Below are positions 1 to 5,405 of a stretch of 5,405 nucleotides of DNA, piece after piece. The first letter of the stretch is position 1, and the number at the start of each line of letters is the position of its first letter. A model generated the notes under the pieces. That model did no database searches, was not told the DNA's origin, and worked only from the letters and a program-made list of their open reading frames with translations. Position numbers and translations under genes: made by a program. Origin of the DNA: a virus (lineage: Duplodnaviria > Heunggongvirae > Uroviricota > Caudoviricetes); the IMG/VR virus record IMGVR_UViG_2609459845_000005; one strand, written 5' to 3'.

Positions 1-477
1 CGTTGGCCTCAACACGATTTTACGTCACTTAAAAAACTCAGGCCGCAGTCGGTAACCTCGCGCATACAGCCGGGCAGTGACGTCATCGTCTGCGCGGAAA
101 TGGACGAACAGTGGGGCTATGTCGGGGCTAAATCGCGCCAGCGCTGGCTGTTTTACGCGTATGACAGGCTCCGGAAGACGGTTGTTGCGCACGTATTCGG
201 TGAACGCACTATGGCGACGCTGGGGCGTCTTATGAGCCTGCTGTCACCCTTTGACGTGGTGATATGGATGACGGATGGCTGGCCGCTGTATGAATCCCGC
301 CTGAAGGGAAAGCTGCACGTAATCAGCAAGCGATATACGCAGCGAATTGAGCGGCATAACCTGAATCTGAGGCAGCACCTGGCACGGCTGGGACGGAAGT
401 CGCTGTCGTTCTCAAAATCGGTGGAGCTGCATGACAAAGTCATCGGGCATTATCTGAACATAAAACACTATCAATAA
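1..477 (+). CDS. insB: IS1 InsB' transposase domain (5' partial; expressed as InsAB' fusion by -1 frameshift)
   Basis: Frame 1 is open from base 1 ([49 protein letters not shown]...HYLNIKHYQ*) and contains the track ORF 100..477. It matches IS1 InsB as recalled. Confidence 0.9.
2..55 (+). CDS. insA: IS1 InsA, 3' end only (5' partial)
   Basis: Frame 2 translates ...[17 protein letters not shown] with TAA at 53-55, which matches the InsA C-terminus from memory. Confidence 0.85.
31..37 (+). promoter_or_regulatory. IS1 programmed -1 ribosomal frameshift site (A6C slippery motif)
   Basis: AAAAAAC at 31-37 sits in the insA/insB' overlap within the context ttAAAAAACtc, the known IS1 frameshift window. 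Confidence 0.8.
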
Positions 478-557
478 GTTGGAGTCATTACCTCCAAATC
501 TGAATAATTAAGTTCAGCACTGTAAATAAAATTTAATCCTTAACTGGAGGTATATCT

Positions 558-770
558 ATGTCAAATACACAGAAAATTATTAACACTGAAAAATATAACG
601 AGTGGGTGAAAAAATTCTCTGAACAGATTTTTAAAATTACTGGCGACGAGAATGTGGCAAAAAATGAATTAGAACCGTGGACACCTGAAGGAAACGCACC
701 AAATTATTGCTGGTGGGAGGTTGATCCGGTTGATGCTGCAAATGAAGCCATGAGTTACCACAACGATTAA
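558..770 (+). CDS. hypothetical small acidic protein (70 aa), first gene of AT-rich cassette
   Basis: ATG at 558 is preceded by GGAGG at 546-550 (7-nt spacing), with TAA at 768-770. Hand count gives about 38% GC. No family recognised. Confidence 0.55.
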   Translation: MSNTQKIINTEKYNEWVKKFSEQIFKITGDENVAKNELEPWTPEGNAPNYCWWEVDPVDAANEAMSYHND

Positions 771-780
771 TGTCGGGAGG

Positions 781-796
781 CCGCCCGAAAGGGCGG
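781..796 (+). other. GC-rich stem-loop with GAAA tetraloop in the A-B intergenic spacer (not a canonical terminator)
   Basis: ccgccc-gaaa-gggcgg is a perfect 6-bp GC stem closing a GNRA loop. No U-tract follows (taagaaATG), and the 3' arm lies 6 nt upstream of the ORF B start. Confidence 0.5.
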
Positions 797-802
797 TAAG
801 AA

Positions 803-1021
803 ATGACTACATTATTCAGAAAAGAATATCCGCAAAAAAGTAGAGCGACAGAATTTTTGTTTCTCATTCTGTTTATCGTATTGATGATACCGATATCCCC
901 TCTAATTTTTGTCTGGGCAATCGGGAAAATAATTGAGCCAGTTACTGAATTGTATACCGACGTTGTATGGGCGTCGTTCAACACACTGCACAATAAAATT
1001 AATCCGTATAAGGAAAACTGA
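803..1021 (+). CDS. hypothetical small membrane protein (72 aa, one predicted TM helix)
   Basis: ATG at 803. A long hydrophobic stretch FLFLILFIVLMIPISPLIFVWAIG is flanked by charged residues. TGA at 1019-1021. AT-rich codon usage. Confidence 0.5.
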   Translation: MTTLFRKEYPQKSRATEFLFLILFIVLMIPISPLIFVWAIGKIIEPVTELYTDVVWASFNTLHNKINPYKEN

Positions 1022-1022
1022 T

Positions 1023-1286
1023 ATGGCAACTTTGACAAAAAAAGAACGGGCATGGTTGAACGAATTACAGGAAGTTCTTGATCGCTGTCCATCACCGAAA
1101 AAAATTGGCTTTTACACCATTGGCGATAAAAGCATTTACCTGTATGACCTACGTCGCATGGATGAAATCATGGAGGCTCTTGATAATCGTTCGTCGATGG
1201 ATTGGTGTGTTGCTGTTCATGATATGAATGCAGGGTTTGATGAAAAGATTTTGTTCCCCTCATCAGTTGAAAGCACTGCGGGTTAA
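1023..1286 (+). CDS. hypothetical protein (87 aa)
   Basis: ATG at 1023 lies 1 nt after the ORF B stop, with AAGGAA at 1010-1015. The track start at 933 would overlap ORF B by about 90 nt with no RBS, so 1023 is preferred. Confidence 0.55.
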   Translation: MATLTKKERAWLNELQEVLDRCPSPKKIGFYTIGDKSIYLYDLRRMDEIMEALDNRSSMDWCVAVHDMNAGFDEKILFPSSVESTAG

Positions 1287-1296
1287 GGAGTAACAC

Positions 1297-1464
1297 ATGA
1301 CCACTATTACCAAAGAACGTATTGAATTGTTCATTAAAAACCCGCTTGAAAACGGGCTTACCCGTGGTGAACAAATGGAACTGGCACGGATTGCGCTGGC
1401 ATCGCTGGAAGCAGAGCCGGTTGTGTTCTGGTTTGAAAAATATCAAGAAGGGGCTACGGCATGA
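1297..1464 (+). CDS. hypothetical small protein (55 aa), paralog of the following gene
   Basis: Absent from the track (below its length cutoff). ATG at 1297 is preceded by AAGGAG at 1285-1290. Translates [55 protein letters not shown], with the TGA stop overlapping the next ATG (gcATGAcg). Confidence 0.45.
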
Positions 1465-1706
1465 CGACTTTTACCAGAGAGCAGTTAATAGCTCACGCAG
1501 AGGAGACTATTGAAGCACAGAGACTGTGCATACCGGGCACAATCGACCATGACATCATCCGCACATATAAGATGGATATTGCTGTTCTGGAAATCGCACT
1601 GGTATCGCTGGCAGCAGAGCCAGCCGGTAAATTGCATGAATACAAACCAGTGGGATATCAGCGTCTGGTCGATGAGTTAACCATGCTGGTAAAGCAGTTA
1701 ACCTAG
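1461..1706 (+). CDS. hypothetical small protein (81 aa), paralog of the preceding gene
   Basis: Track ORF. Shares the N-terminal MTTxT(K/R)E and the IAL(A/V)SL(E/A)AEP motif with the 55-aa ORF. Start overlaps the upstream stop (ATGA). Confidence 0.5.
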
Positions 1707-1801
1707 CAACTGAGGAAAGCGAAGCCAGACTGCAAATTACCGGATAAGGCGATGAGTTATCTGGAGCGGAACGGACTGATAAGCGTGGAGGATATTTTAC
1801 G

Positions 1802-1885
1802 ATGACCTGGCCTGAAGCATTAACAACGGTAGGAATTGCGATGGCGGTGGCGCTGGTGGTGTATTCGATTTGCCGCTGGGGATAA
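1802..1885 (+). CDS. possible small hydrophobic peptide (27 aa, MTWPEALTTVGIAMAVALVVYSICRWG)
   Basis: ATG at 1802 is preceded by GGAGG at 1788-1792 and overlaps the stop of a 17-aa ORF (1752..1805) as ATGA. Coding status is uncertain because the ORF is so short. Confidence 0.2.
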   Translation: MTWPEALTTVGIAMAVALVVYSICRWG

Positions 1886-1892
1886 AAACGGT

Positions 1893-1920
1893 TTGCGGGA
1901 AAAGGAGAGTTAAGTAGAAT
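1893..1920 (+). promoter_or_regulatory. candidate promoter of the hok/mok mRNA
   Basis: -35-like TTGCGG at 1893-1898, 16-nt spacer, -10 TAGAAT at 1915-1920. The predicted start near 1927 is the beginning of the GGGUGCUUGAGGCU element, which resembles the 5' end of plasmid R1 hok mRNA as I recall it. Confidence 0.4.
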
Positions 1921-1979
1921 TGCAGCGGGTGCTTGAGGCTATCTGTCTCAGGCATGAACACCAAAAGGCAGATAGAGAA

Positions 1980-2047
1980 AAGCCCCAGTTAACATTACGC
2001 GTCCGGCAAGACGCTTAACATTAATCTGAGGCCATATCTATGCTCTA
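1980..2047 (-). ncRNA. sok: candidate Sok-type antisense RNA (approximate ends)
   Basis: Minus-strand promoter-like elements: -35 TTGCCT (plus 2078-2083), 17-nt spacer, -10 TAACCT (plus 2055-2060). The transcript would be antisense to the mok start region and carries an imperfect hairpin (GUUAA/UUAAC outer stem, GCGUC/GACGC inner stem) before a short U-run. Placement follows the known hok/sok architecture. Confidence 0.4.
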
Positions 2048-2252
2048 CACACGTAGGTTAGCCTCTTACGTGCCGAAAGGCAAGGAGAAGCAGGCTATGA
2101 AGCAGCAAAAGGCGATGCTAATCGCCCTGATCGTCATCTGTTTAACCGTCATTGTGACGGCACTGGTAACGAGGAAAGACCTCTGCGAGGTACGAATCCG
2201 AACCGGCCAGACGGAGGTCGCTGTCTTCACAGCTTACGAACCTGAGGAGTAA
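2040..2252 (+). CDS. mok: Mok-like reading frame (70 aa), in frame with and containing hok
   Basis: ATG at 2040 extends the Hok frame by 19 codons (MLYTRRLASYVPKGKEKQA-), with a GGAGG-type RBS within it just before the hok ATG. This is the same arrangement I recall for chromosomal mokC/hokC. Confidence 0.55.
   Translation: MLYTRRLASYVPKGKEKQAMKQQKAMLIALIVICLTVIVTALVTRKDLCEVRIRTGQTEVAVFTAYEPEE
2097..2252 (+). CDS. hokD: Hok-family type I toxin, HokD-like (51 aa)
   Basis: MKQQKAMLIALIVICLTVIVTALVTRKDLCEVRIRTGQTEVAVFTAYEPEE matches E. coli HokD (RelF) as I recall it: one TM helix plus the conserved C-terminal Hok region. AGGAGAAG RBS precedes the ATG. Confidence 0.9.
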   Translation: MKQQKAMLIALIVICLTVIVTALVTRKDLCEVRIRTGQTEVAVFTAYEPEE

Positions 2253-2320
2253 GAGACCTGGCGGGGGAGAAATCCCTCGCCACCTCTGATGTGTCAGGCA
2301 TCCTCAACGCACCCGCACTT

Positions 2321-2347
2321 AACCCGCTTCGGCGGGTTTTGTTTTTT
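2321..2347 (+). terminator. intrinsic terminator of hok mRNA
   Basis: aacccgc-UUCG-gcgggtt stem with a UUCG tetraloop, followed by ttttgtttttt. Confidence 0.7.
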
Positions 2348-2368
2348 CCTGGCATTCTGGTTTACAAT
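2339..2368 (+). promoter_or_regulatory. candidate promoter for the rem-ydfU-rusA-Q operon
   Basis: Near-consensus -10 TACAAT at 2363-2368, with a weak -35-like TTGTTT at 2339-2344 (18-nt spacer) that overlaps the terminator U-tract. Confidence 0.35.
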
Positions 2369-2419
2369 TCGCACGTCAGCCTGAACACCTGACACCTGCT
2401 GCGCCAGCAGAGAAAACAG

Positions 2420-2692
2420 ATGGCGCACAAAACCAAATTTCACAATTCTGATACCGACCTTGCCATCCGGCATGAGCGGCGTTCACACGCATTTAAAACC
2501 GACTGGTACCAACACCCACCATGTACTGAAGAACAGGCCGAATGGCTGATTCATTCTTACCGCAGGCGCGGGTTCGAGGTTAAGAAAGCTCTCAGCCTCG
2601 ATTATCGTCACTGGATAATCTCCGTCAGGCTTCCTTACTCTGAACGCCCACCGCGTCCGTCCCGCACATTCCAGCAACGCATCTGGAGGTAA
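2420..2692 (+). CDS. small prophage protein, Rem-like by position (90 aa)
   Basis: Track ORF with ATG at 2420 and TAA at 2690-2692. It sits between hokD and the YdfU-like gene, which is where rem lies in K-12 Qin. Sequence identity to Rem is not verifiable from memory. Confidence 0.45.
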   Translation: MAHKTKFHNSDTDLAIRHERRSHAFKTDWYQHPPCTEEQAEWLIHSYRRRGFEVKKALSLDYRHWIISVRLPYSERPPRPSRTFQQRIWR

Positions 2693-2693
2693 C

Positions 2694-3743
2694 GTGCGGG
2701 TATTACTTCGACCTGTTCTGGTACCGGAACTCGGGCTGGTGATCGTTAAGCCGGGCCGTGAATCCATGCCGGTATTCCACAATACCCGGGTACTGGTGGA
2801 GCCGGAACCGAAAAGCATGCGTAATCTGTCGTCCGGGGTCGTTCCTGCCGTTCGCCAGCCGCTGGCGGAGGATAAATCATTACTGCCATTTTTCAGCGAC
2901 GAACGAGTGATTCGTGCTGCTGGTGGCGCTGGCGCATTGTCTGACTGGTTACTGCGCCATGTTAAATCCTGCCAGTGGCCACACGGCGATTATCACCACA
3001 GTGAAACCGTCATTCACCGTTATGGTACCGGCGCAATGGTGTTGTGCTGGCACTGCGACAACCAGTTGCGTGACCAGACCTCCGAATCACTTGAGCAACT
3101 TGCTCACCAAAACCTGTCAGCATGGATGATTGACGTCATTCGTCACGCAATGAATGGCACACAGGAGCGTGAATTATCGCTGGCTGAATTATCCTGGTGG
3201 GCGGCCTGCAATCAGGTGGTGGATGCACTACCTGAGGCAGTAGCGCGTCGTTCGCTGGGATTACCAGCGGAAAAAATCCGCTCCGTATACCGTGAGAGTG
3301 ACATCGTACCGGGAGAACAGACAGCCATCAGCATACTGAAGCAGCGCACAAAAAATATTGCGCTGCCACTTCACGTCCACCAGCAACAAAATCCACCACA
3401 GGAAAAGACGGTGGTCAGCATTGCCGTTGATCCGGAGTCTCCGGAATCCTTCATGAAACGACCTAAACGTCGCCGCTGGGTTAACGAGAAATACACGCGC
3501 TGGGTGAAGACACAGCCGTGTGCGTGTTGTGGTAAGCCAGCCGACGATCCCCATCACCTGATTGGTCATGGTCAGGGCGGAATGGGGACAAAATCTCACG
3601 ATATTTTCACGCTACCGCTGTGTCGGGAGCATCACAACGAGCTTCATGCGGATCCGCTGGCGTTCGAAGAAAAGCATGGCTCTCAGGTTGATTTAATTTT
3701 TCGTTTTCTTGATCACGCCTTTGCAACCGGCGTGCTCGGGTAA
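2694..3743 (+). CDS. ydfU: YdfU-like prophage protein (DUF968 family), 349 aa, Cys/His-rich C-terminus
   Basis: GTG start at 2694, 1 nt after the upstream stop, with GGAGG at 2685-2689. Length and synteny (hokD-rem-ydfU-Q) match Qin ydfU as recalled. The C-terminus carries CACCGKPADDPHHLIGHG...CREHHNELH. Confidence 0.65.
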   Translation: MRVLLRPVLVPELGLVIVKPGRESMPVFHNTRVLVEPEPKSMRNLSSGVVPAVRQPLAEDKSLLPFFSDERVIRAAGGAGALSDWLLRHVKSCQWPHGDYHHSETVIHRYGTGAMVLCWHCDNQLRDQTSESLEQLAHQNLSAWMIDVIRHAMNGTQERELSLAELSWWAACNQVVDALPEAVARRSLGLPAEKIRSVYRESDIVPGEQTAISILKQRTKNIALPLHVHQQQNPPQEKTVVSIAVDPESPESFMKRPKRRRWVNEKYTRWVKTQPCACCGKPADDPHHLIGHGQGGMGTKSHDIFTLPLCREHHNELHADPLAFEEKHGSQVDLIFRFLDHAFATGVLG

Positions 3744-3755
3744 AAGAGGTTACTG

Positions 3756-4130
3756 ATGCGTATAGAGTTTGTTTTGCCTTACCCGCCGACGGTGAACACC
3801 TACTGGCGACGTCGTGGCAGCACATATTTTGTATCAAAAGCCGGTGAGCGTTATCGCCGGGCTGTGGCGCTTATTGTTCGCCAGCAGCGGCTGAAATTAA
3901 GCCTGTCCGGAAGGCTGGCGATAAAGATTATTGCCGCGCCACCGGATAAGCGCCGCCGTGACCTGGACAATATTCTGAAAGCGCCGCTGGATGCGCTGAC
4001 GCATGCGGGGTTGCTAATGGACGATGAGCAGTTTGATGAAATCAATATCGTTCGTGCTCAGCCAGTATCTGGTGGACGTCTGGGGGTGAAGATTTACCCC
4101 ATAATGCTTGCAGGGCAGGTCAAAAAATGA
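3756..4130 (+). CDS. rusA: RusA-family Holliday junction resolvase (124 aa)
   Basis: AAGAGG RBS at 3744-3749. LPYPPTVNTYWRRR, DKRRRDLDNILKA and SGGRLGVKI align with the RusA signature blocks (LPWPPSNNRYYR, DRRRRDLDN, KGGRL) as recalled. Confidence 0.85.
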   Translation: MRIEFVLPYPPTVNTYWRRRGSTYFVSKAGERYRRAVALIVRQQRLKLSLSGRLAIKIIAAPPDKRRRDLDNILKAPLDALTHAGLLMDDEQFDEINIVRAQPVSGGRLGVKIYPIMLAGQVKK

Positions 4131-4948
4131 AACTGGAAGATTTACCGAAATACTACTCCCCAAAATCCCCCGGCCTGACTGATGCATCGGCCTCAACGTC
4201 GAAAGATGCGCTGAGTATCACTGATGTGATGGCCGCGCAGGGCATGACACAGAATCGGGCTGGGATGGGGTTTTCTGCGTTCCTTGGGAAAATGGGCATT
4301 AGTATGAATGACAGAGAGCGGGCAACAGAATTGCTGACAGAATATGCACTCAGTCGGTGTGATCGCGTGGCGGCGTTAAGAAAACTCCCGGCAGAAATAA
4401 AACCGGCAGTGATGCGTATTATGGCTTCGTATGCGTTTGAAGATTATGCCCGTAGCGCAGCGAGCAAAAAACAGTGCCCCTGCTGTCACGGAAAAAAATT
4501 TATTGAAAGCGAGGTTTTTACAAACAAGATCCAGTATCCGGATGGTAAGCCGCCGGTATGGGCAAAGTGTACGAAAGGTGTGTATCCGTCTTACTGGGAA
4601 GAATGGAAAAAAGTCAGGGAGGTGGTAAAAGTTGCCTGTCCGGAGTGTGGCGGAAAGGGTGAGGTTTCCACCGCCTGTAAGGATTGCCGTGGGCGTGGTG
4701 TCGCCATTCATCGTGAAGAGTCGGTAAAACGTGGTATGCCTGTTATCAGAGACTGCCAGCGTTGTGGTGGTCGTGGCTGTGAAAGACTACCATCAACGGA
4801 GGCATTTAATGCCATATGCAAAGTGACGAGTGCTATCACGCTTGATACGTGGAAAAAATCAGTGAAACGCTTTTACGATACGTTGGTGGTTCGGTTTGAC
4901 ATTGAAGAGGCATGGGCGGAGCGGCAGTTAAAGAGGGTAACGCGATAG
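4127..4948 (+). CDS. putative late-gene antiterminator Q-like protein with four DnaJ-type zinc-finger repeats (273 aa)
   Basis: ATG overlaps the rusA stop (ATGA). It is the last gene before a promoter/terminator pair, as Q is in lambdoid phages. Contains CPCCHGKK, CPECGGKG, CKDCRGRG and CQRCGGRG (three perfect CxxCxGxG). Confidence 0.55.
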   Translation: MKLEDLPKYYSPKSPGLTDASASTSKDALSITDVMAAQGMTQNRAGMGFSAFLGKMGISMNDRERATELLTEYALSRCDRVAALRKLPAEIKPAVMRIMASYAFEDYARSAASKKQCPCCHGKKFIESEVFTNKIQYPDGKPPVWAKCTKGVYPSYWEEWKKVREVVKVACPECGGKGEVSTACKDCRGRGVAIHREESVKRGMPVIRDCQRCGGRGCERLPSTEAFNAICKVTSAITLDTWKKSVKRFYDTLVVRFDIEEAWAERQLKRVTR

Positions 4949-4953
4949 TGTTG

Positions 4954-4981
4954 TTGATTTTTCCCGAATCTGTGGTAAATT
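4954..4981 (+). promoter_or_regulatory. candidate late promoter (PR'-like) with embedded Q-utilisation region
   Basis: TTGATT at 4954-4959, 16-nt spacer, extended -10 TGgTAAATT at 4973-4981. It starts 6 nt after the Q-like stop. Confidence 0.4.
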
Positions 4982-5030
4982 CGCTCTAACGATGGGCGTT
5001 TTATGCCTGACGTTAGAAGATTTTTTACAC

Positions 5031-5053
5031 CCCGCCGCCTGGCGGGTTTTTTA
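5031..5053 (+). terminator. strong intrinsic terminator (tR'-like) about 60 nt downstream of the candidate late promoter
   Basis: cccgcc-gcct-ggcggg is a perfect 6-bp GC stem, followed by tttttta. Confidence 0.75.
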
Positions 5054-5174
5054 TGACTGAAATCGCGTCAGTACAGTAAACGCGCTGGTGGCGGTGAATA
5101 CCTGTCTTTCAGCTTGCTGGCTTTTTCGACAAGAGTTATTGGTGTGTCACGTTAACCGGAAAAGGGAAAAAGAC

Positions 5175-5372
5175 ATGCTAAAACAGCAGGATATGACAGA
5201 AACCGCCAGAGTAGTGTTTAATGAATTAAGCGTTACCGAACCGGCGACAGTCGGGGAGATTGCACAGAATACTTACCTTTCACGCGAACGCTGCCAGTTA
5301 ATACTGACCCAGCTGGTTATGGCGGGGCTGGCAGACTATCAGTTCGGTTGTTACAGACGCCTTCCGCAGTGA
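5175..5372 (+). CDS. hypothetical small protein (65 aa), possible helix-turn-helix DNA-binding protein
   Basis: ATG at 5175 with AAGGGA at 5162-5167. The track ORF start at 5088 is a GTG with no RBS. The segment VGEIAQNTYLSRERCQLILTQLVMAGL looks like an HTH recognition helix. Confidence 0.45.
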   Translation: MLKQQDMTETARVVFNELSVTEPATVGEIAQNTYLSRERCQLILTQLVMAGLADYQFGCYRRLPQ

Positions 5373-5383
5373 AGGCTTTTTTA
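5359..5383 (+). terminator. intrinsic terminator overlapping the stop codon of the 65-aa ORF
   Basis: gccttc-cgcagt-gaaggc stem-loop followed by tttttta. The stop TGA (5370-5372) lies in the loop/3' arm. Confidence 0.65.
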
Positions 5384-5405
5384 TTTGTGGTAAATGGGCG
5401 GCTGG

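What the first reader, a model, noticed from the sequence alone, without database searches (positions are those of the whole stretch)
493..1290. AT-rich three-gene cassette (soluble 70 aa, membrane 72 aa, soluble 87 aa) wedged between IS1 and the prophage genes
Immediately after the IS1 end the composition drops: ORF A is about 38% GC by hand count, against a visibly GC-richer ydfU-Q block. Three short genes are packed on one strand, with a 1-nt gap between the second and third and good RBSs. I recognise none of the three proteins. A compact, compositionally foreign cassette containing a single-pass membrane protein, sitting in the accessory (nin/moron) region of a lambdoid prophage, is the typical context for phage-carried superinfection-exclusion, abortive-infection or anti-defence modules. 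This is the best candidate in the window for an undescribed system.
Basis: partly seen in the sequence, partly recalled or inferred. Interest (0 to 1): 0.72.

Follow-up and report, generated by a model that had tools for sequence, protein, structure and literature searches.

The report
Three unrelated small prophage accessory genes
The three tightly packed AT-rich genes are real and conserved, but they are three separately mobile phage accessory genes of unknown function that recombination has placed side by side, not parts of one new defence or anti-defence system.

Summary
A (558-770, 70 aa), B (803-1021, 72 aa) and C (1023-1286, 87 aa) lie on the + strand directly after the IS1 end (492). 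The stretch is 39% GC against 51% for the rest. All three genes are under purifying selection.

The reading as one undescribed three-gene system is not supported.
- Each gene belongs to its own catalogued family: A phrog_4659, B Pfam DUF4014/phrog_1832, C phrog_1714 (the ST64T Orf-87 family).
- The families have different host ranges and occur apart. No deposited phage carries the block.
- C stands alone in virulent chi-like and rV5-like phages and in Vibrio, Aeromonas and Yersinia phages.
- None of 42 epsilon15-type B loci has A or C nearby.
- B-C adjacency is confined to one E. coli lineage.
- In 5,426 E. coli genomes, B has 1,704 copies and C 1,196, but the trio is found in only 401 genomes.

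The block has no promoter or terminator of its own and is read as part of the replication-to-Q early operon, here cut off by IS1. A conserved Shine-Dalgarno-plus-hairpin element before B recurs before another gene and shows all four flank combinations, so it marks a recombination joint.

No PADLOC, NCBIfam or PDB match exists. C has a confident fold with no solved relative. Functions remain unknown.

The parts
476..492 (.). Right end of IS1 (terminal inverted repeat). It cuts the block off from the upstream prophage genes.
   Evidence: The sequence ...AAGTTGGAGTCATTACC is the IS1 terminus (my own knowledge of IS1). The insB-type ORF ends at 477. Homology to IS1-free prophages starts at 493.
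493..557 (+). AT-rich leader (28% GC) with A's Shine-Dalgarno sequence GGAGG at 546-550.
   Evidence: In intact prophages this leader follows the stop of the DUF977 gene by about 40 nt.
558..770 (+). Gene A: 70-aa soluble acidic protein (pI 4.5), family phrog_4659. Invariant C-terminal DPVDAAN..S motif. Restricted to Escherichia/Shigella prophages.
775..802 (+). SD-plus-hairpin linker: GGGAGG, a 7-bp stem with a GAAA loop (780-797), then AAGAA before B's AUG. It is a recombination joint and the probable translation-initiation region of B.
   Evidence: Fold -18.8 kcal/mol, z -3.9. The same 22-mer precedes other genes, and all four flank combinations exist.
803..1021 (+). Gene B: 72-aa DUF4014 protein with a basic N-tail, one transmembrane helix (residues about 18-42) and an invariant C-terminal tail (Y51, W56, F59, LHNK, NP).
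   Evidence: Pfam PF13198, 3.7e-26. phrog_1832. Hydropathy. Alignment A3. 126 phage records, including 933W L0067 and epsilon15 gp46.
1023..1286 (+). Gene C: 87-aa soluble acidic protein, family phrog_1714 (ST64T Orf-87 family). Start codon 1 nt after B's stop.
1297..1464 (+). Gene D: 55 aa, related to the N-terminal part of EaA (DUF551) proteins.
   Evidence: 91% identical to the start of g341c 'truncated EaA'.
1461..1706 (+). Gene E: 81 aa here, cut short by an in-frame TAG. Intact 114-aa versions end at the position equivalent to 1805.

Best explanation
The block is not one system. It is a run of three unrelated, separately mobile small accessory genes in the delayed-early (replication-to-Q, 'nin-type') stretch of a Qin/Rac-like lambdoid prophage. 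IS1 has severed it from its upstream promoter.

Shown:
- Each gene belongs to its own family with its own distribution.
- All three are under purifying selection.
- The block has no promoter or terminator of its own. It lies between the replication genes and hok-DUF968-rusA-Q on one strand, so it is transcribed by read-through of the early rightward operon.
- Homologs of the same genes sit in the early-leftward 'ea' region of 933W-, P22- and epsilon15-like phages.
- A conserved 28-nt Shine-Dalgarno-plus-GNRA-hairpin element at the A/B boundary recurs at another gene boundary. All four left/right flank combinations exist, so it is a joint at which these modules are exchanged.

Inferred:
- Each product acts alone on a host target early in lytic growth.
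- B is an N-in single-pass inner-membrane protein. Its invariant C-terminal tail binds an envelope protein. The only functional label in circulation, 'O-polysaccharide acetyltransferase inhibitor', is inherited from an old annotation of epsilon15 gp46 and could not be verified here.
- C is a self-sufficient cytoplasmic factor aimed at something conserved from Vibrio to Escherichia, because virulent and temperate phages of all these hosts carry it alone.
- A is a young, host-restricted acidic binder.
- B is translated from a Shine-Dalgarno sequence brought to about 5 nt from its AUG by the hairpin.
- C is translated by coupling to B.
For: Families: Pfam DUF4014 for B, and PHROGs 4659, 1832 and 1714 over the full length of A, B and C.

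Separation in deposited phages:
- 0 of 121 matching records cover >=80% of the block.
- A is in 8 records, B in 126 and C in 81, with different hosts.
- In ArgO145, A and a B homolog lie 1.1 kb apart in the ea region.
- The B homologs in 933W, epsilon15 and g341c are flanked by Ea22-like, EaA/DUF551 or other hypothetical genes, not by A or C.
- C in ST64T, chi-like FSL SP-030, rV5-like Av-05 and a Vibrio phage has no A or B within 2.5 kb.

Profile search of flanks:
- 42 of 42 epsilon15-type B loci lack A and C.
- 56 of 87 loci fetched with distant C queries have C alone.
- The 30 loci with B all carry the E. coli-type C allele.

E. coli complete genomes:
- A in 445 genomes, 548 places.
- B in 1,003 genomes, 1,704 places.
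- C in 979 genomes, 1,196 places.
- The B-C junction is intact in 582 genomes.
- The whole trio is present in 401 genomes.

IMG/VR loci: A is alone in 23 of 62, B lacks C in 24 of 65, and C lacks both A and B in 12 of 67.

Operon context.

Signals: no promoter or terminator above chance inside the block. The first good terminator on this strand is at 2321-2338.

Linker and four flank combinations.

Coding status: dN/dS well below 1 and all alleles intact.
Against: - The A-B-C order is kept in two haplotypes about 7% apart in DNA.
- About 90% of A-carrying E. coli genomes have the whole trio (401 of 445).
- B and C are separated by 1 nt, which suits translational coupling, and they are adjacent in 582 genomes. 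A lineage-specific functional partnership therefore cannot be excluded by comparative data alone.
- No function was shown for any of the three.
- The IMG/VR locus sets keep only the best-matching loci (at most 80 per scan), so they are biased samples.
- The promoter scan covers only sigma-70-type consensus sites.
Confidence: 0.72

Rival explanations
1. A, B and C form one three-component module: a membrane effector (B) with two soluble partners, acting in superinfection exclusion, abortive infection or anti-defence.
For: - Tight packing on one strand.
- The trio is contiguous in 401 E. coli genomes, and its order is kept across 93-99% identity haplotypes.
- A is rarely found without B and C in E. 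coli genomes.
- It lies in an accessory region.
Against: - Most B and C copies lie outside the trio.
- No deposited phage has the block.
- A is alone in 23 of 62 IMG/VR loci.
- In ArgO145, A is followed by a different gene.
- Distant B and C homologs are never together.
- No PADLOC match.
- No promoter or terminator of its own.
Confidence: 0.08
2. B and C form a two-gene unit: a membrane anchor plus a translationally coupled soluble partner. A is an unrelated neighbour.
For: - A 1-nt gap between B's stop and C's start.
- The junction is intact in 582 of about 1,000 genomes that carry either gene.
- 30 of 87 loci fetched with distant C queries have B directly upstream.
Against: - The adjacency is confined to the E. 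coli-type C allele.
- 42 of 42 epsilon15-type B loci and 56 of 87 loci fetched with distant C queries lack the partner.
- C is carried alone by virulent chi-like, rV5-like, Klebsiella, Serratia, Vibrio and Yersinia phages.
- B is followed by EaA/DUF551, HNH or other hypothetical genes elsewhere.
Confidence: 0.12
3. B is a phage inhibitor of a host membrane O-antigen acetyltransferase, a seroconversion factor as its legacy name says. The block would then be a lysogenic-conversion locus.
For: - g341c gene 23 and Salmonella phage P6 are annotated 'O-polysaccharide acetyltransferase inhibitor'. The g341c note traces this to 'acetyltransferase inhibitor protein epsilon15p46'.
- The same names persist on some E. 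coli entries.
- A small single-pass membrane protein with an invariant tail is the right kind of molecule. Small phage proteins that alter O-antigen are documented (PMC12373910), and epsilon15 and D3 encode small inhibitors of the O-antigen polymerase.
Against: - I could not find any experiment behind the label. The epsilon15 genome paper is not held.
- The current epsilon15 RefSeq record no longer uses the name.
- epsilon15 gp46 lies in the early region among Eae, Ea22 and DUF551 genes. From my memory of the epsilon15 genome paper, which I did not check here, the conversion genes lie next to the tailspike gene, elsewhere in the genome.
- The family is common in Stx phages, P22-like phages and phage-plasmids of hosts with many different O-antigens.
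- No similarity to Gnarl1-3.
Confidence: 0.15
4. The ORFs are chance open frames in AT-rich spacer DNA, or remnants left by the IS1 insertion.
For: - The ORFs are short.
- IS1 lies next to them.
- A has no Pfam family.
Against: - dN/dS is 0.02-0.5, and all 62 distinct alleles are intact.
- Full-length PHROG matches at E 1e-45 to 1e-51.
- Homologs down to 39% identity for C and 46% for A keep length and motifs.
- The same block exists without IS1.
Confidence: 0.01

Closest known systems
Small early accessory genes of lambdoid and P22-like phages (the lambda nin region, and the lambda/P22 'ea' genes such as Ea22, Ead, Eae and EaA)
   Same: - Short genes packed head to tail in early operons.
- Dispensable-looking and highly mosaic.
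- Homologs of B, C, D and E sit beside Eae, Ea22/Ead and EaA/DUF551 genes in 933W, P22-like phages and epsilon15.
- Here the block lies between the replication genes and Q.
   Different: - None of A, B or C matches the named Nin or Ea Pfam families.
- Only D and E resemble the N-terminus of EaA.
- In this prophage, genes otherwise seen in the leftward ea region sit in the rightward operon.
Pfam DUF4014 (PF13198) / phrog_1832, e.g. 933W L0067, epsilon15 gp46, ES18 gp39
   Same: B matches the model end to end (residues 1-72 of 72, 91.8 bits against a cut-off of 23.2). It shares the invariant C-terminal tail.
   Different: Nothing distinguishes B from the family. The family itself has no demonstrated function. 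Its circulating names ('released from the phage upon host infection', 'acetyltransferase inhibitor') could not be traced to an experiment.
Linker (boundary) sequences proposed to mediate module exchange in lambdoid phages (Clark et al. 2001, HK620; cited in PMC2629481; the concept is from my own knowledge)
   Same: A short conserved sequence lies exactly at gene boundaries, is repeated within one genome, and has recombinant flank combinations in different phages.
   Different: Here the conserved element is also a Shine-Dalgarno sequence plus a stable GNRA hairpin placed immediately before the start codon. It may therefore also have a role in translation. This was not tested.
Gnarl proteins: small phage accessory proteins that alter O-antigen (Silas et al. 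2025, PMC12373910)
   Same: - Size class of 40-90 aa.
- Carried by both lytic and temperate phages.
- Found in hypervariable accessory regions.
- Each is a single gene that acts alone.
   Different: - No sequence similarity of A, B or C to Gnarl1, Gnarl2 or Gnarl3.
- A, B and C are absent from the supplementary tables of both screen papers by peptide or accession search.

Membership tests
Pfam DUF4014 (for B) | Score above the curated gathering threshold over the whole model | tested here: met
   91.8 bits against a 23.2 cut-off, residues 1-72 on model positions 1-72. The precomputed PF13198 assignment is present on all listed homologs.
Multi-gene phage defence, exclusion or anti-defence system (for A+B+C) | Component genes co-occur across divergent lineages more than linkage alone explains | tested here: not met
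   - 42 of 42 epsilon15-type B loci lack A and C.
- 56 of 87 loci fetched with distant C queries lack A and B.
- No deposited phage has the block.
- The trio is in 401 genomes against 1,704 B and 1,196 C copies.
Multi-gene phage defence, exclusion or anti-defence system (for A+B+C) | Similarity of at least one component to a known defence protein model | tested here: not met
   No PADLOC family at E <= 1 for A, B, C, D or E. Nothing significant in NCBIfam.
Multi-gene phage defence, exclusion or anti-defence system (for A+B+C) | A phenotype that requires the genes together | not testable with these tools
   Needs cloning and phage challenge.
Moron (autonomous phage-borne transcription unit) | Own promoter and terminator flanking the inserted gene or genes | tested here: not met
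   - The sigma-70-like sites on this strand (678-707, inside A, and 2015-2044, next to hok) are no more numerous than in shuffled sequence.
- No terminator on the + strand before 2321 except a weak 5-bp candidate at 1404.
Moron (autonomous phage-borne transcription unit) | Base composition different from the neighbouring phage genes | tested here: met
   39.0% GC against 51.2% GC.
Phage O-antigen acetyltransferase inhibitor (for B) | Demonstrated loss of O-acetylation or binding to the acetyltransferase for a family member | tested here: inconclusive
   Only annotation strings were found. The source paper is not held, and text searches found nothing.
Gnarl O-antigen-modifying proteins | Sequence similarity to Gnarl1 (KpV79 gp56), Gnarl2 (Mu Mup07) or Gnarl3 (Mangalitsa gp5) | tested here: not met
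   Best BLASTP E-value 0.16 over 9 residues.

The most novel reading that the evidence does not exclude
C (the ST64T Orf-87 family) is a single-protein host-takeover or anti-defence factor with a fold not yet seen in solved structures. It would target something conserved from Vibrio to Escherichia. In the E. coli lineage, its translational coupling to the membrane protein B could reflect a newly evolved two-part module. The comparative data do not exclude either point.
Probability: 0.2. Interest if true: 0.6.

Novelty: new member of a known kind. Interest (0 to 1): 0.3.

Why it matters
As a candidate 'undescribed system' this should be downgraded. Effort spent testing A+B+C combinations would probably be better spent on the single genes.

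What remains useful:
- C is a strongly conserved (dN/dS about 0.05), broadly distributed phage protein. Its predicted fold is confident and has no solved relative, which makes it a reasonable single-gene target for anti-defence or host-takeover screens.
- DUF4014 is present in about a fifth of complete E. coli genomes (1,003 of 5,426) and in Stx phages. It carries two untraceable functional labels that deserve either a test or removal from databases.
- The SD-hairpin linker is a clean, countable example of how small accessory genes are re-assorted at exact gene boundaries.

Tried and rejected
Sequence and structure searches that gave nothing:
- PADLOC and NCBIfam gave nothing for A-E.
- PDB sequence searches with single sequences and with the C profile gave nothing below E 0.7.
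- Foldseek of the C model against BFVD found only a family member.
- The afdb50 library was unavailable.
- Pfam on all 40 C-family members gave nothing.
- An exhaustive HMMER search with A over 1.8 billion representatives found only two distant full-length relatives.

Literature that gave nothing:
- 'DUF4014', 'released from the phage upon host infection' and 'acetyltransferase inhibitor' with prophage/O-antigen gave no paper.
- One search was wasted on histone acetyltransferase papers.
- The epsilon15 genome paper could not be opened by DOI, PMC id or PMID.
- The epsilon34 paper does not discuss the homolog.

Ideas tested and dropped:
- I tested the idea that C (87 aa) might be Gnarl2/Mup07 (also 87 aa). 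There is no similarity.
- Neither accessory-gene screen paper lists A, B or C.
- I first assigned the hairpin to A's 3' end, from the match ends. Searches showed instead that it is a shared boundary element.
- Rfam finds only sok, outside the block.

Full report
WHAT IS THERE

The window is part of a Qin/Rac-like lambdoid prophage. IS1 ends at 492. Everything that follows is on the + strand:
- A, 558-770, 70 aa.
- B, 803-1021, 72 aa.
- C, 1023-1286, 87 aa.
- D, 1297-1464, 55 aa.
- E, 1461-1706, 81 aa.
- A hok/sok locus: Rfam sok at 1927-2102 (117 bits), hok at 2097-2252.
- A 90-aa ORF.
- ydfU/DUF968, 2694-3743.
- rusA, 3756-4130.
- A Q antiterminator gene, 4127-4948.

Region 493-1290 is 39.0% GC against 51.2% for 1291-5405, and A is 37.6%. 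B's stop and C's start are 1 nt apart. B has a single strongly hydrophobic segment (residues 19-37, Kyte-Doolittle 2.96) after a basic N-tail. A and C are soluble and acidic.

ARE THEY GENES?

Yes. Across the fetched loci there are 23, 22 and 17 distinct full-length alleles of A, B and C, and all are intact. dN/dS against the window allele is 0.11-0.24 for A, 0.09-0.49 for B and 0.02-0.12 for C. Each protein matches a PHROG over its full length: phrog_4659 at 5e-51, phrog_1832 at 2e-45 and phrog_1714 at 1e-50. B is also Pfam DUF4014, at 91.8 bits against a cut-off of 23.2.

CONTEXT

In genomes without the IS1, such as NZ_AP022105, the order is: int, xis, exo, ydfD, dicB, ydfABC, repressor, cro, ydaT, replication genes, DUF977, then A-B-C-D-E, hokD, DUF968, rusA, Q, lysis genes. 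The block therefore lies in the stretch between the replication genes and Q in the rightward early operon.

A consensus scan finds no promoter or terminator above chance inside the block. The first convincing terminator on this strand is at 2321-2338, after hok. The block is not an autonomous transcription unit. In this window IS1 has cut it off from its natural promoter.

IS IT ONE CASSETTE?

This is the central test, and the answer is no.

(a) Deposited phage genomes.
- None of 121 matching records covers 80% of 493-1290. A, B and C match in different phages.
- At protein level A is in 8 records, all ArgO145-type Stx phages or Ro157c2YLVW. B is in 126 and C in 81.
- B's records include 933W, Sakai and other Stx phages, epsilon15, epsilon34, g341c, ES18, HK225 and D6.
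- C's records include P22-like ST64T, L and Emek, virulent chi-like Salmonella phages, and rV5-like myoviruses.
- C is also found in Klebsiella, Serratia, Aeromonas, Vibrio and Yersinia phages.

(b) Individual phage contexts.
- In ArgO145, A and a B homolog lie in the early-left ea region, 1.1 kb apart with three other genes between them.
- In 933W, epsilon15 and g341c, B is flanked by Ea22-like, EaA/DUF551 or other hypothetical genes.
- In ST64T, FSL SP-030, Av-05 and a Vibrio phage, C has no A or B within 2.5 kb.

(c) Loci fetched with distant family members as queries, with flanks searched using family profiles.
- 42 of 42 epsilon15-type B loci lack A and C.
- 56 of 87 loci fetched with distant C queries have C alone.
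- The 30 loci with B upstream all carry the E. coli-type C allele.

(d) The 5,426 complete E. coli genomes.
- A is in 445 genomes (548 places).
- B is in 1,003 genomes (1,704 places).
- C is in 979 genomes (1,196 places).
- The B-C junction is intact in 582 genomes.
- The whole trio is present in 401 genomes.

(e) IMG/VR loci chosen for highest similarity to the window proteins still show separation. A is alone in 23 of 62, B lacks C in 24 of 65, and C lacks both A and B in 12 of 67.

The trio is therefore a common arrangement within one group of E. coli/Shigella prophages. It is inherited by linkage and is not a property of the gene families. The residual argument for a partnership has three parts:
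- A is rarely found without B and C in E. coli genomes.
- The A-B-C order survives about 7% DNA divergence.
- The B-C gap is 1 nt.

I give the three-gene system 0.08 and a B-C pair 0.12.

HOW THE PIECES ARE SHUFFLED

Between A and B lies GGGAGG, then a 7-bp stem with a GAAA loop (780-797), then AAGAA and B's AUG. It folds at -18.8 kcal/mol, with z = -3.9 against shuffles.

The exact 22-mer GGAGGCCGCCCGAAAGGGCGGT occurs twice, about 1,064 nt apart, in many related prophages. One copy precedes B. The other precedes an unrelated 60-aa DUF7167 gene.

All four combinations of left and right flank exist:
- A | B (window, L246).
- 118-aa gene | DUF7167 gene (L246).
- A | DUF7167 gene (ArgO145, where the 60-aa protein is 100% identical).
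- 118-aa gene | B.

That is the signature of recombination at the element. It fits the 'linker sequence' idea put forward for lambdoid mosaicism (Clark et al. 2001; from my own knowledge).

The observed variants keep the stem: a C-to-U change gives a G-U pair, and the loop changes from GAAA to GGAA. No fully compensatory change was seen.

The element places a strong Shine-Dalgarno sequence 5 nt from the AUG if the hairpin is skipped. It may therefore also set B's translation, as described for some T4 genes (my own knowledge). This was not tested.

WHAT THE PROTEINS MIGHT DO

There is no match to PADLOC, NCBIfam or PDB sequences.

C:
- The AlphaFold model is confident (pLDDT 91.8), with an alpha-beta-beta-alpha-alpha-beta topology.
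- Invariant residues are W11, C22-P23, G29, G34, Y41-D42, F78 and the C-terminal G87.

A:
- It is confined to Escherichia/Shigella. Only two distant full-length relatives, about 46% identical, exist among 1.8 billion representatives.
- It is predicted as three helices at moderate confidence, with no specific fold match.
- Its C-terminal DPVDAAN..S motif is invariant.

B:
- The most conserved part is the tail after the membrane helix (Y51, W56, F59, L62-H63-N64-K65, N67-P68). These residues are invariant even at 51% overall identity. This points to a conserved binding partner, which charge distribution places on the periplasmic side.
- The labels 'O-polysaccharide acetyltransferase inhibitor' and 'sugar acetyltransferase inhibitor' on some homologs go back to an old annotation of epsilon15 gp46 (note).
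- I could not find an experiment behind these labels, and the current epsilon15 RefSeq record has dropped the name.
- Small phage proteins that alter O-antigen do exist: the Gnarl proteins (PMC12373910). A, B and C are unrelated to them and do not appear in that screen's tables.

MOST LIKELY MECHANISM

Three independent early-expressed accessory proteins are transcribed by read-through of the early operon. Each acts alone on a host target.
- B acts at the inner membrane through its conserved tail.
- C acts in the cytoplasm on something conserved across Enterobacterales and Vibrionaceae.
- A is a host-restricted acidic binder.

The shown steps are gene reality, independence of distribution, operon position, absence of the block's own transcription signals, and the recombination joint. 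The targets and activities are inferred.

VERDICT

The 'undescribed system' reading is not supported. The genes are catalogued families of unknown function, and they are ordinary members of the pool of small mosaic early genes of lambdoid and other phages. Interest is 0.3, carried mainly by C as a single-gene target and by the linker element.

Noticed in passing
window 775-802; also L246 7219-7240 and 8283-8304; L241 2902-2923: A conserved Shine-Dalgarno-plus-GNRA-hairpin element lies directly before B's start codon. It recurs about 1,064 nt downstream, before an unrelated DUF7167 gene, in many prophages. All four left/right flank combinations exist, so it behaves as a recombination joint. It may also bridge the Shine-Dalgarno sequence and the AUG for translation of B.
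   Followed up: partly
window 1461-1805: Gene E carries an in-frame TAG at 1704-1706 (81 aa here). Otherwise near-identical prophages encode a 114-aa protein ending at the position equivalent to 1805, so this copy is truncated.
   Followed up: partly
window 1802-1882 (+): A 26-aa hydrophobic ORF (MTWPEALTTVGIAMAVALVVYSICRWG). Its ATG overlaps, as ATGA, the stop of the intact form of E. It could be a small membrane peptide and is not called in the annotations I saw.
   Followed up: no
window 1927-2338: A complete hok/sok type I toxin-antitoxin locus: Rfam sok at 117 bits (1927-2102), hok at 2097-2252 with a mok-like upstream start at 2040, and an intrinsic terminator at 2321-2338.
   Followed up: partly
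window 1297-1706; L239 3223-3354: D and E both begin with an N-terminal module related to EaA (DUF551-containing) proteins. D is 91% identical to the start of g341c 'truncated EaA'. In epsilon15, g341c and 933W an EaA/DUF551-type gene lies just downstream of B (directly after it in the first two). C therefore looks like an insertion between B and an EaA-like gene.
   Followed up: partly
L247, L248, L252 (contigs CP104419.1, CP146292.2, CP022457.1; organism not checked): In these genomes IS elements have split and inverted the prophage. IS1-A-B and a C remnant abut the chromosomal ompW gene. A truncated C, then D-E-hok-DUF968-rusA-Q, lie inverted on the other side of an IS3-family element. The exact A protein of the window is recorded under Shigella sonnei names and on at least 1,000 contigs.
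   Followed up: no
epsilon15 NC_004775.2 38035-38253; 933W NC_000924.1 3326-3544: The product name 'released from the phage upon host infection' attached to DUF4014 proteins and phrog_1832 has no source that full-text search could find. It sits oddly on a 72-aa membrane protein encoded among early genes and looks like a propagated annotation artefact.
   Followed up: partly
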